24,759 nucleotides of DNA from a virus. Its lineage: Duplodnaviria > Heunggongvirae > Uroviricota > Caudoviricetes. Positions 1,419-15,557 of this stretch are shown here, piece after piece. Each line of letters opens with the position of its first letter. Position 1 is the stretch's first letter. Location: the IMG/VR virus record IMGVR_UViG_2537561689_000015; one strand, given 5' to 3'. A model generated the notes under the pieces. The model did not search any database. It was not told the DNA's origin and was given only the letters and a program-made list of their open reading frames with translations. The position numbers and the translations under genes were made by a program.

Positions 1419-3890
1419 TTAAAAATCAGCCTGACTCGGGATCAGTTTTTGCCAGATTGCTGAAACGTATTTTGCCTGGTAACGGGCGTCATCAAGTGCA
1501 TTATGGCGCTCACCTTCGAATGGAATAGCCGTTCTGGCATCGAAGTCTATGGCTTTCCCCAGCTCAACGATTGTGCGTACATCGCGATCGTTGTAGTAAC
1601 GCCACGGGCAGGGGATCCCCTGCCGTTCGTATGAACGGCGCAAAATCGTGTTGTCGAAGTTGGCTCCATTTCCCCAGACCTGAACAAAAAATTCGCCGGA
1701 GTTTTCGTCGATAAATTCCCGCAATTGTAACAGTGCATCATCTAACGGGATTTCATCGGTCATAATAGCAGATTGCGCTTCGCGTGATTGCTTAAGCCAC
1801 CATTTAATGGTGTCCCGATCAATGACTCCGCCAGCAGTTTCCAGATCGATAGTCTTACTAAATTCCGGTCCCATATCTCCGGTTTGCGGATCGAAAAATA
1901 TTGCACCTATTGAGATGATCGGGGCATCGGGATTTTTTCCCATGGTTTCAAGGTCGATCATTAGATGGTCACACGTCCTGCTGGTGGATGTGATAACGCG
2001 ATGACCGTTCACCGTAATTAAGGGATCTGCCGTCTCGCCAGTTTCACTATCGCTGGCGTGATCCTGAGCGCTGCCAGCATTCTCCTTGTGTGGATGTTCA
2101 GCGCCTTCCATTTTCTCCGAATCGTCTTCCTGAACTTCAACCTGGTTCTTGTCATCGAATGTTTCCTGGTATGTTGCGTCGCCCATCACCGCGCCACAAT
2201 CAGGGCAGTTGCCGCCGCCGGTCTGGCCGCAGGCGGTGCAGATCTTTTCCGGTTCCTGTTGCACTACTGGTTCAGGTTGTTTCGTTTCTTGCTCGTTTTG
2301 TAACGCATTTGGGCTGTTTTGTTCCGCTTTCTGGCCGTTCTGTTCCGTTTCTTGCTGGTTCTGGTTCACAGAATCGCGGGTTTCCATCCCCTTAACCCAT
2401 TTCGGATCATTCGGGTCGCTAATCCCTTCAATAAATTCACCACGTGATGCAGCAAGCAACTTATCGGCGTCAGGCTGGCTGATATTGGCTGCCTGCATAA
2501 TTTTGTTTACTTCGTCAGCGGTAACTTTTACCGGTTCTGGCTGTGCGGTCGTGTCAGATGCACCAGTATTTTGTTGTGAACCTGAGTATGTACTGTTTTT
2601 GCGGGCGAAATATTCTTCTTTCGTGATTTCAGTAGCCCCGGCAGCCAGCGCCTTATCCAGACCAGAAAGTTTGTTTGCGCGACCGTATTTTTCGCCATCC
2701 TTGTCGGTGAAGAGGAAGTAGAACGGCCCCTCACGCTCTACAGATGGTTCGACTTCCACTTTGCATTCGGTTTTTTCGTTGTCCGGAATTGCCGTTTCCA
2801 CTGCATCAGTTTCTGGTACTGGCGACGAGAGAGTATCAGTTGCGATCTGATTTGTTCCTTCATCTTCAAACACGCCCTTTGTAGTCAGGTATTCAGTAAT
2901 GTATTTGTTCAGTACCACAGGGTCTTTGTGAATGTCGATCGGACGCTCACGGACAAGGCCAAAAATAGTCTGGCGGTCGTAGCGAAGGGCATCAGGCTGT
3001 TTGCGTATTGATGCTGAGATACGCTTCCAGTCTTCGCGGTCGTTGTTGATAACTTCATTTTTTGCCCAGCGATGGATGCTGCCGTCAATGTTTCCGGCAT
3101 CAATGTCACCAGGCCACAGAGCGTAGGCCAGTTCATCATCCAGTGTTTTCCATGTCTGCTTATATTCGCGACGAATGACTGCAGTGACAGGGGGGATATT
3201 TTCTGCTGAGTTTTCAGTGTGCTGTCGGTTGACTCTGGCGCGGGCGAGATCAACAGCAGACGTGTATTTTCCAGTCTCTTTGCGCTCTGCGTCCTGCCGT
3301 TTTTTCCAGTTACGTAATTCAGCCTGAATTTCGGGCCATTTGGCACCCGGATTACATTTGTGTTTAACCCATCCGATAGCGAACAGTTTGCGTTCCGGAT
3401 ACATAGCGTTAATTTCAGGCGTTTTCATCAGTGCTTCAACGATATGCCCGTCAAAGGTAGCAACGTCTTCCTGCAGTAATTCCTGCGCGTCAATCGCCAT
3501 ATCAACGGTGATGTTTTCACATGTACCGAACTTAACCAGGACCGCGTTCTGTACTTCAAGGGACAGCTTGTCAAAATTGACGTTCATCGGATCGGATTCT
3601 GGTTCGACCGGAATAAAGGAAGCGGATTCCTCATCCCAGCGGTTTTCCTGCATATATTCAGCATCCCAGGAATCGAGGGCAGGGCGGGGTATACCGGGTT
3701 TATCCTCGCAAACAAGAAATTTATAAGCGCAGTCCTGAGCAGCCGGATAATGTTCCAGGAATTGCCAGTGAAATTTTGCGCGGGCGCGACGTTCATCACC
3801 GGCTTCAATGGCAGTGGCTACAGCGACGGCACCTTCTTCCTTTATTGCCTGTTCGTCCGGAATAGCGGCGCAAATAAAGACTTTACTCAT
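1419..3890 (-). CDS. Large exonuclease-family protein with C-terminal DnaQ-like DEDDh 3'-5' exonuclease domain
   Basis: 823-aa ORF. C-terminal region carries the three exonuclease motifs DLETMG, WGNGANFD and HNALDDARYQAKY. The central part has a CxxC...CPDC zinc-ribbon-like motif and a Q/E-rich low-complexity stretch. Confidence 0.85.
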   Translation of the reverse strand: MSKVFICAAIPDEQAIKEEGAVAVATAIEAGDERRARAKFHWQFLEHYPAAQDCAYKFLVCEDKPGIPRPALDSWDAEYMQENRWDEESASFIPVEPESDPMNVNFDKLSLEVQNAVLVKFGTCENITVDMAIDAQELLQEDVATFDGHIVEALMKTPEINAMYPERKLFAIGWVKHKCNPGAKWPEIQAELRNWKKRQDAERKETGKYTSAVDLARARVNRQHTENSAENIPPVTAVIRREYKQTWKTLDDELAYALWPGDIDAGNIDGSIHRWAKNEVINNDREDWKRISASIRKQPDALRYDRQTIFGLVRERPIDIHKDPVVLNKYITEYLTTKGVFEDEGTNQIATDTLSSPVPETDAVETAIPDNEKTECKVEVEPSVEREGPFYFLFTDKDGEKYGRANKLSGLDKALAAGATEITKEEYFARKNSTYSGSQQNTGASDTTAQPEPVKVTADEVNKIMQAANISQPDADKLLAASRGEFIEGISDPNDPKWVKGMETRDSVNQNQQETEQNGQKAEQNSPNALQNEQETKQPEPVVQQEPEKICTACGQTGGGNCPDCGAVMGDATYQETFDDKNQVEVQEDDSEKMEGAEHPHKENAGSAQDHASDSETGETADPLITVNGHRVITSTSRTCDHLMIDLETMGKNPDAPIISIGAIFFDPQTGDMGPEFSKTIDLETAGGVIDRDTIKWWLKQSREAQSAIMTDEIPLDDALLQLREFIDENSGEFFVQVWGNGANFDNTILRRSYERQGIPCPWRYYNDRDVRTIVELGKAIDFDARTAIPFEGERHNALDDARYQAKYVSAIWQKLIPSQADF

Positions 3891-3969
3891 GTTGTTTTAA
3901 CCTCATTACAGATTTAAGGGTGAACAAATCCCTGCCATTGCTGGCATATAAAATGAAACTGGATATTAA

Positions 3970-4173
3970 TTACGGCGCTGTTTTAAGTCCTGCCGGGATT
4001 TCGTTATTATCCATGTGAATAACTTTATCGACCGGATAGCAGTTACCGGGGATTTTTTGTTCTGCTGCGGCAGCCATGCATTCTTTCATTGAACCGTAAA
4101 TGTCAATAACCATGTCAACAGGCTCGCCAGTATTAAGAAAAACAGTCAGAGTGAGGGCAATAGCAGTATTCAT
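3970..4173 (-). CDS. Hypothetical small protein with N-terminal hydrophobic segment
   Basis: Start taken at the internal ATG at 4173, preceded by AAAGGA at good spacing (ORF track extends to 4227). Hydrophobic stretch AIALTLTVFL near the N-terminus. The start overlaps the stop of the upstream ORF as ATGA. Confidence 0.45.
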   Translation of the reverse strand: MNTAIALTLTVFLNTGEPVDMVIDIYGSMKECMAAAAEQKIPGNCYPVDKVIHMDNNEIPAGLKTAP

Positions 4174-11322: not shown

Positions 11323-11533
11323 AAACGGTTTGCGGGGAAATCTTAGTTAAGTAGAATGACTGTGGGTGCTTGAGGCTATCTGTCTCAGGCATGAACACCA
11401 AAAGGCAGATAGAGAAAAGCCCCAGTTAACATTACGCGTCCTGCAAGACGCTTAACATTAATCTGAGGCTCAATCCATGCTGAACACATGTAGGTTAGCC
11501 TCTTACGTGCCGAAAGGCAAGGAGAAGCAGGCT

Positions 11534-11689
11534 ATGAAGCAGCAAAAGGCGATGTTAATCGCCCTTATCGTCATCTGTTTAACCGTCATAGTGACGGCAC
11601 TGGTAACGAGGAAAGACCTCTGCGAGGTACGAATCCGAACCGGCCAGACGGAGGTCGCTGTCTTCACAGCTTACGAACCTGAGGAGTAA
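11534..11689 (+). CDS. hok: Hok/Gef-family type I toxin (small membrane toxin)
   Basis: 51-aa product MKQQKAMLIALIVICLTVIVTALVTRKDLCEVRIRTGQTEVAVFTAYEPEE, which I recognise as Hok-family (closest in my memory to HokD/RelF). Strong AAGGAGAAG Shine-Dalgarno. An in-frame upstream extension from 11477 may be a Mok-like leader reading frame. Structured leader and a terminal hairpin as in hok mRNAs. Confidence 0.85.
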   Translation: MKQQKAMLIALIVICLTVIVTALVTRKDLCEVRIRTGQTEVAVFTAYEPEE

Positions 11690-11757: not shown

Positions 11758-11778
11758 AACCCGCTTCGGCGGGTTTTT
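11758..11778 (+). terminator. Rho-independent terminator after hok
   Basis: AACCCGCTTCGGCGGGTTTTT: a GC-rich stem with a TTCG loop and a T-run. Confidence 0.6.
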
Positions 11779-11904
11779 CGTCGCATTATGAGGTTGTAAT
11801 TTTAGCTACCATGAGACTATCCTAAGGATCTCAAACAGATCTATTTTGTATCAAATTTGGTGCATGGCTTTGCCAATAATCGGAAAACAAAAGGACTCAT
11901 TAGT

Positions 11905-12084
11905 ATGAGCTGCCCACTCAAAAAACACACGCGGTTGAGTATTCCGCCTCGCGATAAAAGCGTTGTGGCAGTCCCTCGCCCAGTGATTGATGAAAACTGC
12001 GCACATCGTGAACAAGTGAAAAATGCTTTTGATTTCGGTTTTTCTCGTTATGAGAAAGCCATGGAAGAACTTTCAAAAGTGTAA
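11905..12084 (+). CDS. Putative antitoxin partner of the Doc-family toxin (59 aa)
   Basis: Start taken at the ATG at 11905, preceded by AAGGA (track 11857). Immediately upstream of the Doc-like gene, the usual antitoxin position. Not Phd-like by eye. Inverted repeat GATCTCAAACAGATC lies in the upstream region. Confidence 0.5.
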   Translation: MSCPLKKHTRLSIPPRDKSVVAVPRPVIDENCAHREQVKNAFDFGFSRYEKAMEELSKV

Positions 12085-12102
12085 TGATGGGTATTGTACT
12101 CT

Positions 12103-12588
12103 ATGGCTGAGATTGTTGAAGGAGTGCATTACCTTACGGTTGATGATCTTGTTGAAATCAATCATTCCCTAATTGAATTACAGACGCCAGATGAGCCCGT
12201 TGGTGTTCTGAGTCCAGATAACTTAAGTTCTTCTCAGGCCCGTCCCAGCATGGTTCGATGGTATGAACAGACTAATGACATGTTTGTACTGGCATCGGTA
12301 TTGATTGAAAGTCTGATTCAGAATCATCCGTTTGCTAATGCGAACAAACGAACAGCTATGATGGCTGGTTACGTCTTCTTGTTGTTGAATGGCTATGAGT
12401 TAACAGCACCAGGCGATGAAATCGTGGAAATGGCAGAGGGACTGGCCTGCAAAACCTATACTCGAGAAGATCTCGAGAACTGGTTGTGTTATTGGTCTCG
12501 CGCGTATGACAGCCGGGAATTATGTAAAACAAGCGCAACTATTGTTTTGTATGAAACTATCAAGCTTAAAATAGAACAGCAAAACTAA
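12103..12588 (+). CDS. Doc/Fic-family toxin (Doc-type kinase motif)
   Basis: Motif HPFANANKRTAMMAG fits the Doc-type signature HxFx(D/N)(A/G)NKR. Start taken at the ATG at 12103 (track starts at a TTG at 12094). AT-rich gene. Confidence 0.8.
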   Translation: MAEIVEGVHYLTVDDLVEINHSLIELQTPDEPVGVLSPDNLSSSQARPSMVRWYEQTNDMFVLASVLIESLIQNHPFANANKRTAMMAGYVFLLLNGYELTAPGDEIVEMAEGLACKTYTREDLENWLCYWSRAYDSRELCKTSATIVLYETIKLKIEQQN

Positions 12589-12604
12589 AGGTGCTTCCAA
12601 TGAA

Positions 12605-12627
12605 AACCCGCTTCGGCGGGTTTTTTA
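12605..12627 (+). terminator. Rho-independent terminator after the Doc-family gene
   Basis: AACCCGCTTCGGCGGGTTTTTT: the same hairpin sequence as the terminator after hok. Confidence 0.6.
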
Positions 12628-12785
12628 TTTTAATGGACTAAATTTTAGCCAATTCTTCTATTTAACCGACCAGGGTTTGTTGATTAGCTGGTATGCCTGA
12701 CTAGAATCGATGCACTTAAGTAGCGCGCAGGGAGAAGAGGGATGGACCCCAAACAGGGGAGTGCTATTTATCTGGAAGGATTCTG

Positions 12786-13049
12786 TTGATGAAAATCAGA
12801 GAATTACGTGAAATTTTTAGTGAAGATGGCCTCTATACTGTGCGCGTTGAGAATGGCGCAATTGTCAGCCACTGCCGTATTAAATGTTTACAGTCTCAAC
12901 AAAGGAAGAGTGGAGCTGCGTTAATTCATTTGGTGGATGGGCTTGTGACGGATGGTTTTATTTTGCGTGCAAATGAATTTGTCACATCGTTGCCGTCTCT
13001 GAAAGAAGCTGGGATTAAGGCTGGTTTTTCTGCTTTTGAAGATGAGTGA
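12786..13049 (+). CDS. Hypothetical protein (87 aa)
   Basis: ATG preceded by GGAAGGA. No recognisable motif. Confidence 0.5.
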   Translation: MMKIRELREIFSEDGLYTVRVENGAIVSHCRIKCLQSQQRKSGAALIHLVDGLVTDGFILRANEFVTSLPSLKEAGIKAGFSAFEDE

Positions 13050-15533: not shown

Positions 15534-15557
15534 AACCCGCTTTATGCGGGTTTTTTT
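15534..15557 (+). terminator. Rho-independent terminator, tR'-like, downstream of the Q gene
   Basis: AACCCGCTTTATGCGGGTTTTTTT, about 165 bp after the Q stop, the classic place for the short late leader transcript ended at tR' in lambdoid phages. The pR' and qut site should lie within 15369-15530 but I could not place the hexamers confidently. Confidence 0.6.

What the first reader, a model, noticed from the sequence alone, without database searches (positions are those of the whole stretch)
11780..12630. Doc-family toxin with an unrecognised small upstream partner, inserted between two identical terminators
The 161-aa protein carries the Doc-type motif HPFANANKR. The 59-aa upstream protein does not look like Phd or YefM, so this may be a Doc paired with a different antitoxin fold. 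The module is AT-rich and is bounded on both sides by the same 21-nt terminator hairpin (AACCCGCTTCGGCGGGTTTTT at 11758 and 12605), suggesting it was acquired as a cassette by recombination at terminator sequences.
Basis: partly seen in the sequence, partly recalled or inferred. Interest (0 to 1): 0.55.

Follow-up and report, generated by a model that had tools for sequence, protein, structure and literature searches.

The report
Prophage Doc toxin with uncharacterised partner
An E. coli lambdoid prophage carries an 847-bp add-on gene pair, a Doc-type toxin and a small conserved uncharacterised protein that is probably its antitoxin, placed just after the hok toxin gene and flanked by two identical terminators; this is a modest new variant of a well-known kind of system.

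Summary
Window 12103-12588 encodes a 161-aa Doc toxin: TIGR01550 scores 127.9 bits against a cutoff of 38.65, and the HPFANANKR motif is intact. Window 11905-12084 encodes a 59-aa protein with no Pfam, NCBIfam or PDB match. The exact 21-mer AACCCGCTTCGGCGGGTTTTT lies at 11758 and at 12605.

The window is an E. coli lambdoid prophage. The pair sits directly after the hokD/sok terminator. E. coli A41 has the exact empty site, with a single terminator.

The small protein is a real, narrow family (PHROG 2208, unknown function; 38 clusters among 1.84 billion representatives). It lies directly upstream of this Doc subfamily in six other genera and in two Pseudomonas phages. It is not Phd/YefM. AlphaFold2 predicts no globular domain, only a C-terminal helix (residues 34-57), and that helix is under strong purifying selection.

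The downstream terminator belongs to the module, because homologous hairpins follow Doc in genera that lack hok. The 21-mer itself is a generic phage terminator, found in about 100 unrelated contexts.

Best reading: this is a type II toxin-antitoxin moron that was gained or lost by recombination between two independently native, identical terminators. Doc paired with non-Phd antitoxins is already documented, so novelty is moderate. Toxicity, neutralisation and the biological role are untested.

The parts
11364..11689 (+). Neighbouring hokD/mok/sok type I toxin-antitoxin locus (context, not part of the insert). The hokD CDS is 11534-11689.
   Evidence: Pfam HOK_GEF E = 3e-23. Rfam sok RF01794 118.9 bits at 11364-11539. 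PGAP annotation hokD.
11758..11778 (+). T1, the hok mRNA terminator hairpin and left copy of the 21-nt direct repeat.
   Evidence: Exact repeat. Present as the only copy in empty-site prophages A41, GB089 and PPompW. Folds at -13.9 kcal/mol.
11779..12625 (+). The 847-bp insert unit: leader, small gene, Doc gene and its own terminator. It is absent from otherwise collinear prophages.
   Evidence: Junction alignment with the A41 empty site. An artificial precise-excision query matches A41 in one ungapped piece at 96.8%. GC 42.4%.
11779..11904 (+). Leader with a candidate sigma-70 promoter: -35 TTGTAA at 11794-11799, an 18-nt spacer, and -10 TATCCT at 11818-11823. Small palindromes lie at 11833-11846 and 11847-11864.
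   Evidence: The hexamer positions are kept in the otherwise diverged second E. coli leader type, TTGTGA / TATGCT. The leader is only 40-62% identical between alleles. The site falls below the threshold of the consensus scan.
11905..12084 (+). 59-aa small protein, the putative antitoxin. It carries an IPPRDKS motif and a predicted C-terminal helix (residues 34-57).
   Evidence: PHROG 2208 E = 1.7e-40. Conserved upstream of Doc in 8 of 8 loci from other genera and in 2 Pseudomonas phages. AF2 model. Codons 34-59 show 6 synonymous and 0 non-synonymous differences against the other E. coli alleles L003, L004 and L006, and 6/1 against L005.
12103..12588 (+). 161-aa Doc-family toxin. The catalytic motif HPFANANKR is encoded at 12325-12351. 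A conserved ~30-aa C-terminal extension is present.
   Evidence: TIGR01550 127.9 bits. PDB 9vzc_A E = 6.7e-13 and P1 Doc 3k33 E = 5.5e-5, with the motif aligned. NHPFANANKRTA is invariant in 12 homologues.
12605..12625 (+). T2, the module's own intrinsic terminator and right copy of the 21-nt direct repeat.
   Evidence: Terminator scan hit. Folds at -16.1 kcal/mol. Homologous hairpins follow the Doc stop codon, directly or within about 20 nt, in Morganella, Providencia, Yersinia, Serratia and Kluyvera.
12626..13049 (+). Right flank shared with empty-site prophages, including the 'rem'-like ORF (12789-13049). Not part of the module.
   Evidence: Follows the single terminator directly in A41. 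PHROG 340, unknown function. Annotated rem in the PPompW phages.

Best explanation
The 847-bp unit at 11779-12625 is a self-contained type II toxin-antitoxin 'moron' in the early-right (nin) region of an E. coli lambdoid prophage. It lies immediately downstream of the hok/sok terminator.

Shown:
- The unit carries a Doc-family Fic-fold protein with a complete HxFx(D/N)(A/G)NKR motif.
- A 59-aa protein of an uncharacterised narrow family lies 18 nt upstream of Doc. This family sits upstream of the same Doc subfamily across Enterobacterales, in Pseudomonas phages and in unassigned metagenomic contigs.
- The unit has its own intrinsic terminator.

Inferred mechanism:
- The two genes are co-transcribed from a weak promoter in the leader.
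- Doc phosphorylates EF-Tu, as P1 Doc does, and arrests translation.
- The small protein neutralises Doc by laying its conserved amphipathic C-terminal helix (residues 34-57) into the Doc groove. This would work like the C-terminal neutralisation segments of Phd, EFPhd and PanA-Phd-C.
- The small protein lacks a Phd/YefM or AbrB DNA-binding domain.
- The pair either stabilises the prophage or aborts superinfection when the labile antitoxin stops being replenished.

Inferred origin:
- The hok terminator and the module's terminator are each native to their own gene, yet they are identical over 21 nt.
- This short homology is where the module was joined to hok-bearing prophages, and where it can be lost again.
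- The module then spread among lambdoid prophages through flanking homology.
For: Doc identity:
- Alignment to solved Doc structures, with the motif residues matched, is.
- The motif is invariant, and there are 40 synonymous against 11 non-synonymous codon differences in the most diverged E. coli allele.

The partner is a real gene linked to Doc:
- Doc lies directly downstream in 8 of 8 genome loci from Kluyvera, Serratia, Yersinia, Morganella and Providencia.
- Protein identity is 55-57% in Pseudomonas phages Sirocco and LPPA56.
- Remote members P0036 and P0039 are followed after 3 nt by Fic/Doc genes.
- The C-terminal helix has 6 synonymous and 0 non-synonymous changes in 3 of the 4 allele comparisons (6/1 in the fourth), against 6-7 and 7 in the N-terminal half.

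Not Phd/YefM.

Helix-only neutralisation has precedent: PMC10440598, PMC9207808 and PMC13034048.

Moron features:
- An exact empty site exists.
- The unit has its own terminator.
- Its GC content is lower than its surroundings.
- The Doc PHROG 577 is filed under the category 'moron'.

Position: 30 + 90 of the 125 module-bearing E. coli genomes have the module directly after the hok terminator.
Against: - No experiment or complex model was available.
- Five family members occur without a downstream Doc: P0031, P0042, P0044, P0049 and P0050.
- There is no detectable sequence homology between the helix and Phd-C. The shared hydrophobic spacing was seen by eye and is what any amphipathic helix shows.
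- The promoter is weak (4/6 + 4/6) and below the scan threshold.
- The 21-mer is a generic terminator. Its identity at both ends could therefore be coincidence, with the junctions made by other means.
- Insertion and deletion cannot be told apart.
Confidence: 0.65

Rival explanations
1. The two identical terminators are a duplication created by the insertion event itself. This would be like a long target-site duplication, or a Campbell-type integration of an 847-bp circle at the hok terminator. On this reading the module had no terminator of its own.
For: - The insert is bounded exactly by the 21-nt repeat, and the empty site has one copy.
- A single crossover between a circle and the hok terminator would give exactly this structure.
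Against: - Doc genes in Morganella, Providencia, Yersinia, Serratia and Kluyvera have no hok nearby. They are still followed, at the same position, by homologous hairpins, for example AACCCGCTCAGGCGGGTTTTTTT. T2 is therefore ancestral to the module.
- The insert contains no transposase, integrase or terminal inverted repeats.
- The exact 21-mer recurs in about 100 unrelated phage contexts.
- A Campbell-type crossover at an already similar terminator remains possible. That is effectively the main explanation.
Confidence: 0.12
2. The 59-aa protein is not an antitoxin. It would instead be a small phage regulator or an unrelated early protein that merely travels with Doc. Doc would then be controlled some other way, or be inactive.
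For: - Doc-less homologues exist in phage-like contigs: L143, L145, L146/L147, L148 and L150.
- No known antitoxin domain is present.
- Relatives in Providencia and Morganella have an operator-like palindrome in the promoter, which points to a regulatory DNA-binding role.
Against: - The upstream position and 3-18 nt spacing are invariant across distant taxa, and no other candidate partner is conserved.
- The strongest constraint falls on a terminal helix of the same length and position as known Doc-neutralising segments.
- Orphan antitoxins are common.
- A regulatory role and an antitoxin role are not mutually exclusive.
Confidence: 0.15
3. The module is a decaying passenger with no current function.
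For: - The copy in Salmonella phage SW-37 has frameshifts in both genes.
- The module is present in only 125 of 5426 complete E. coli genomes.
Against: - Both ORFs are intact in all E. coli alleles examined, even though nucleotide identity falls as low as 87%.
- Synonymous changes dominate, and the catalytic motif is invariant.
Confidence: 0.05

Closest known systems
Phd/Doc of phage P1 (PDB 3K33, 3DD7)
   Same: - The toxin is Fic-fold Doc with the HxFx(D/N)(A/G)NKR motif.
- The small partner gene lies immediately upstream.
- The module is phage-borne.
- Neutralisation is probably through a C-terminal helical segment of about 22 residues.
   Different: - The toxin is only distantly related (E = 5.5e-5 to 3k33). 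It carries a conserved ~30-aa C-terminal extension.
- The partner has no Phd/YefM domain and no detectable homology to Phd.
- The prophage is an integrated lambdoid prophage, not a plasmid prophage.
Enterococcus faecalis EFPhd-EFDoc (PDB 9VZC; PMC13034048)
   Same: - It is the closest solved Doc (E = 6.7e-13).
- Its antitoxin is also not a canonical Phd fold, and it neutralises through a bent C-terminal helix.
   Different: EFPhd has a ~55-residue AbrB-like beta-dome DNA-binding domain. The 59-aa protein here has only ~33 non-helical residues before the helix, and no predicted domain.
PanA_Phd-C:Doc D6 and other neutralisation-segment-only antitoxins (NetFlax; PMC10440598)
   Same: The concept is the same: a linear helical element is enough to neutralise Doc, and single-domain antitoxins made only of the neutralising element exist.
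   Different: There is no Panacea domain and no sequence similarity. The family here (PHROG 2208) is not described as an antitoxin in any source searched.
Phage morons (Hendrix/Juhala concept; definition as quoted in PMC2629481)
   Same: - The unit is a probably independently expressed gene set that is present or absent between otherwise collinear phages.
- It has its own terminator.
- Its base composition is atypical.
   Different: The insert boundaries coincide with a 21-nt terminator that is identical to the terminator of the upstream gene.

Membership tests
Doc toxins (Fic/Doc superfamily, TIGR01550) | Significant match to the Doc/Fic family HMMs, above the curated cutoffs | tested here: met
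   TIGR01550 127.9 bits against 38.65. PF02661 45.7 bits against 24.
Doc toxins (Fic/Doc superfamily, TIGR01550) | Catalytic motif HxFx(D/N)(A/G)NKR | tested here: met
   HPFANANKR occupies residues 75-83. It aligns to HIFNDANKR of P1 Doc and is invariant in 12 homologues. The motif is as stated in PMC13034048.
Doc toxins (Fic/Doc superfamily, TIGR01550) | Phosphorylates EF-Tu (Thr382) and arrests translation | not testable with these tools
   This needs an in vitro kinase assay or an in vivo toxicity assay.
Phd/YefM antitoxins | N-terminal Phd/YefM DNA-binding and dimerisation domain (PF02604) | tested here: not met
   No Pfam hit for the protein or for any of 37 family members. hhalign against P1 Phd gives 1.5% probability. 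AF2 shows no folded N-terminal domain.
Phd/YefM antitoxins | C-terminal helical segment that binds the Doc groove | tested here: inconclusive
   - A helix is predicted at residues 34-57 with pLDDT 79-86.
- It shows 6 synonymous and 0 non-synonymous changes in 3 of 4 allele comparisons, 6/1 in the fourth.
- Hydrophobic residues F42, F46, Y49, M53 and L56 match the spacing of Phd hot spots F56, F60, L63, L67 and L70 (PMC9207808). This was seen by eye only.
- No complex model could be made.
Type II toxin-antitoxin module | Two small co-oriented adjacent genes whose pairing is conserved across taxa | tested here: met
   The gap here is 18 nt. The pairing holds in 8 of 8 loci from other genera, 2 Pseudomonas phages, L144 and L151. 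Five Doc-less homologues also exist.
Type II toxin-antitoxin module | The antitoxin neutralises the toxin by direct binding and is labile | not testable with these tools
   This requires co-expression, pull-down or ITC, and protease-dependence assays.
Type II toxin-antitoxin module | Autoregulation through an operator in the promoter | tested here: inconclusive
   - Relatives in Providencia and Morganella have a palindrome, TAATG(T/A)AA..TT(A/T)CATTA, between -35 and -10. It shows a symmetric compensated change.
- The window leader has only short palindromes.
Phage moron | Present or absent between genes that are adjacent in related phages | tested here: met
   Empty sites in A41, GB089 and PPompW, with an exact junction in A41.
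Phage moron | Own terminator and own promoter | tested here: inconclusive
   The terminator criterion is met. The promoter is only a weak candidate whose position is conserved in both leader types.
Transposon / integron-type cassette | Recombinase gene, terminal inverted repeats or an attC-like site, and a short target-site duplication | tested here: not met
   The insert holds only the two ORFs. The only terminal repeats are the 21-nt terminators, which are native to each neighbouring gene.

The most novel reading that the evidence does not exclude
PHROG 2208 would be a new, minimal, neutralisation-only class of Doc antitoxin with no DNA-binding fold. Its Doc-less copies in other phages (L143, L145, L146, L148, L150) would be free-standing anti-Doc counter-defence genes. 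In parallel, the generic UUCG-loop terminator AACCCGCTTCGGCGGGTTTTT would act as a portable short-homology site through which phage recombinases shuffle morons between genomes.
Probability: 0.15. Interest if true: 0.6.

Novelty: new variant of a known kind. Interest (0 to 1): 0.38.

Why it matters
If confirmed, this would add a further antitoxin family to the partners of Doc. It would be unusually small: a single helix plus a short conserved IPxRDK segment. That would make it a compact natural template for Doc-inhibiting peptides and for studying how Doc is neutralised.

It also gives a clean natural example of a moron whose boundaries coincide with terminator homology, with filled and exact empty sites both available. 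The site sits next to hok/sok and, in O104:H4, next to a third toxin-antitoxin pair, so it behaves as a toxin-antitoxin hotspot in lambdoid prophages of pathogenic E. coli (ETEC, O104:H4, O157, O103).

None of this overturns current understanding. Doc toxins, antitoxin swapping and morons are all established.

Tried and rejected
- Complex modelling was not possible. A read-through reference was rejected because of two stop codons.
- The small-protein profile found only noise in the PDB at E up to 10.
- hhalign against P1 Phd showed no homology.
- PADLOC gave only weak sub-threshold Fic-like hits for Doc and nothing for the partner.
- Rfam found nothing in the leader or the module. The only hits there were sub-threshold matches driven by the terminators.
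- I considered a target-site-duplication or mobile-element origin for the repeats. I rejected it because T2 is conserved in hok-free genera and no recombinase is present.
- I considered co-variation between the diverged leader and the N-terminus of the small protein as evidence of DNA binding. I dropped it because the leader is essentially replaced (40-62% identity), while the N-terminal half differs at only about 7 residues.
- P0046 is a weak profile hit next to asparagine synthase and is probably a false positive.
- Literature searches by accession number and by PHROG id found nothing.

Full report
**Context.** The window is 100% identical over this region to lambdoid prophages in ETEC and other E. 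coli chromosomes, for example NZ_CP025916. The local gene order is as follows:
- replication and early genes;
- hokD/mok/sok, with Pfam HOK_GEF at 3e-23 and Rfam sok at 118.9 bits over 11364-11539;
- terminator T1;
- a leader, a 59-aa ORF, Doc, and terminator T2;
- a 'rem'-like ORF, then DUF968, RusA, a DUF1133 family protein, tRNAs and the lysis genes.

**Checking the observation.**
- The 21-mer AACCCGCTTCGGCGGGTTTTT is present exactly twice, at 11758-11778 and 12605-12625. No shuffle of the window produced a match, even with 3 mismatches allowed.
- Both copies fold into a 7-10 bp GC stem with a UUCG loop and a U-tract.
- The 161-aa ORF (12103-12588) matches TIGR01550 'death-on-curing family toxin' at 127.9 bits against a cutoff of 38.65, and matches Pfam Fic.
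- Its nearest solved relative is E. faecalis EFDoc (9vzc_A, E = 6.7e-13). It also aligns to P1 Doc (3k33), with HPFANANKR opposite HIFNDANKR. The D-to-N change is allowed by the family motif HxFx(D/N)(A/G)NKR (PMC13034048).
- In 12 homologues from seven genera and two Pseudomonas phages, NHPFANANKRTA is invariant. A C-terminal extension (WLxxWxRxxDxRxL), absent from P1 Doc, is also conserved.
- The 59-aa ORF (11905-12084) has no Pfam, NCBIfam, PADLOC or PDB match.
- The insert is 42.4% GC. The hok region is 52% and the window as a whole is 49.6%.

**The small protein is a real gene tied to Doc.**
- It matches PHROG 2208 (unknown function) end to end, at E = 1.7e-40.
- A profile search of 1.84 billion representative proteins found only 38 clusters at E <= 1e-3, nearly all 47-60 aa long. 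They share the motifs IPxRDK and QVxNAFxxxFxRYxKAxxxLSKV. None of the 37 aligned members (36 of those clusters plus the window protein) has a Pfam hit.
- A scan of one genome per species returned 8 loci, from Kluyvera, Serratia, Yersinia pestis, Morganella and four Providencia. In all 8 a Doc homologue of 66-72% identity starts 13-62 nt downstream (13-21 nt in seven of them), and no hok is nearby.
- The same pairing holds in Pseudomonas phages Sirocco and LPPA56, at 55-57% identity for the small protein and 58-60% for Doc. It also holds for two remote family members, P0039 and P0036.
- Between E. coli alleles, the C-terminal 26 codons show 6 synonymous and 0 non-synonymous differences against three of the four other alleles (6/1 against the fourth), while the N-terminal 33 codons show 6-7 of each.
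- Five family members are not followed by Doc. They are mostly shorter forms: P0031, P0042, P0044, P0049 and P0050.

**What kind of partner it is.**
- AlphaFold2 with a 12-sequence alignment predicts no globular domain. Residues 1-33 are non-regular (pLDDT 61-68) and residues 34-57 form one helix (pLDDT 79-86).
- hhalign of the family against P1 Phd gives 1.5% probability. The Phd sequence used was verified against PDB entries 3hry/3k33. The protein is therefore not a Phd/YefM antitoxin.
- The literature shows that Doc neutralisation needs only a C-terminal helical segment. This holds for Phd residues 52-73 (PMC9207808), EFPhd residues 52-79 (PMC13034048), and the Phd-C element fused to Panacea or even to SUMO (PMC10440598).
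- When the C-termini are aligned, Phd hot spots F56, F60, L63, L67 and L70 fall on F42, F46, Y49, M53 and L56 of the small protein. This is an observation by eye on an amphipathic helix, and it is not a statistical result.
- I infer a minimal antitoxin that consists mainly of the neutralising helix. The role of the conserved IPxRDK segment is unknown.
- In the Providencia and Morganella relatives, a palindrome with a symmetric compensated change sits between the -35 and -10 elements. Some DNA-binding regulator therefore probably acts there. Whether it is the small protein is open.

**The cassette and its terminators.**
- E. coli A41 carries hok, a single terminator, and then the exact right-flank sequence that follows T2 in the window. 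The indel is thus an 847-bp unit whose ends fall anywhere within the 21-nt repeat.
- GB089 and the PPompW phages are further empty sites, with more diverged spacers.
- The module occurs in 125 of 5426 complete E. coli genomes and never on their plasmids. It is also absent from PLSDB plasmids.
- Thirty genomes have the window-type leader, and 90 have the other leader type joined to hok-T1. At least 120 of the 125 genomes therefore carry the module directly after hok. The downstream neighbours vary.
- T2 is not a copy made at insertion. In genera without hok, homologous hairpins follow the Doc stop codon, directly or within about 20 nt. Examples are Morganella AACCCGCTCAGGCGGGTTTTTTT, Providencia AACCCACTCCGGTGGGTTTTTT, and similar ones in Yersinia, Serratia and Kluyvera.
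These cover about 100 different upstream contexts, of which only about 20 are hok. It is a convergent, generic terminator.
- The simplest reading is that two independently native terminators happen to be identical. That 21-nt homology mediated the joining, or a later precise loss, of the module. Spread among prophages would then occur through flanking homology.
- The direction, insertion or deletion, cannot be resolved from these data. The unit meets the working definition of a moron (PMC2629481). Only its promoter is unproven: TTGTAA, 18 nt, TATCCT matches 4/6 in each hexamer, and the position is conserved in both leader types.

**Novelty.**
- Doc toxins with non-Phd partners are documented. 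Makarova et al. list 48 AbrB/MazE-Fic/Doc pairs and the YhfG family.
- No paper in the searchable library mentions these protein accessions or PHROG 2208.
- I therefore rate this as a new variant of a known kind. The antitoxin family is uncharacterised and unusually small, the toxin is standard, and the setting is a textbook moron.
- Function, toxicity and biological role remain inferred.

Noticed in passing
L143:277-642, L145:1036-1194, L146:2001-2153 (= L147), L148:295-444, L150:2001-2150: Homologues of the 59-aa protein occur without any Doc gene downstream. They are mostly shorter forms that lack the first ~10 residues. One of them (L146/L147, NCBI assembly GCA_014906785.1) lies next to a hok gene on the opposite strand. 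They may be orphan antitoxins, remnants, or anti-Doc genes.
   Followed up: partly
L003:4735-5364 (E. coli O104:H4 2009EL-2071): In O104:H4 prophages, T2 is followed at once by a RelE/ParE-family toxin and an HTH gene on the opposite strand. Three toxin-antitoxin systems (hok/sok, small protein/Doc, and RelE-like/HTH) therefore sit side by side, which suggests a toxin-antitoxin hotspot in the nin region.
   Followed up: no
window 11779-11904 compared with L003-L006 at about 3870-4000: Two leader types lie upstream of the small gene. They are only 40-62% identical while the coding DNA is 87-100% identical. The window type is in 30 genomes and the other type in about 90. L004 has 98.8% identity in Doc but 87% in the small gene, so recombination breakpoints fall inside the module.
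   Followed up: partly
L004:about 3850-3875 (E. coli 2014C-3655): The hok terminator T1 has a disrupted stem here (AACCTACTTCGGCGGTTTTTTT), and an IS3 element lies just upstream of hok. Read-through from hok into the Doc module may differ in this strain.
   Followed up: no
L010:2301-2945 (Salmonella phage SW-37): Both the small gene and the Doc gene are broken by frameshifts in this deposited phage genome. This could be a decaying copy or a sequencing error.
   Followed up: no
L015-L019 promoters, e.g. L017:about 2905-2935: An operator-like palindrome, TAATG(T/A)AAC-TTAA-CTT(A/T)CATTA, lies between a TTGACT -35 element and the -10 element in the Morganella and Providencia modules. A change in one arm is mirrored in the other arm.
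   Followed up: partly
window 12481-12588 (Doc residues about 127-161): This Doc subfamily has a conserved C-terminal extension (WLxxWxRxxDxRxLC) beyond the 126-aa P1 Doc core. Its function is unknown.
   Followed up: no
window 15534-15557: A third, closely similar terminator (AACCCGCTTTATGCGGGTTTTTTT) lies further downstream in the same prophage. It has the same stem and a different loop.
   Followed up: no
NZ_CP013663.1 (E. coli GB089): L008 and hit H151: One strain carries both an empty hok site, in one prophage, and a filled hok-Doc site elsewhere in the chromosome.
   Followed up: no
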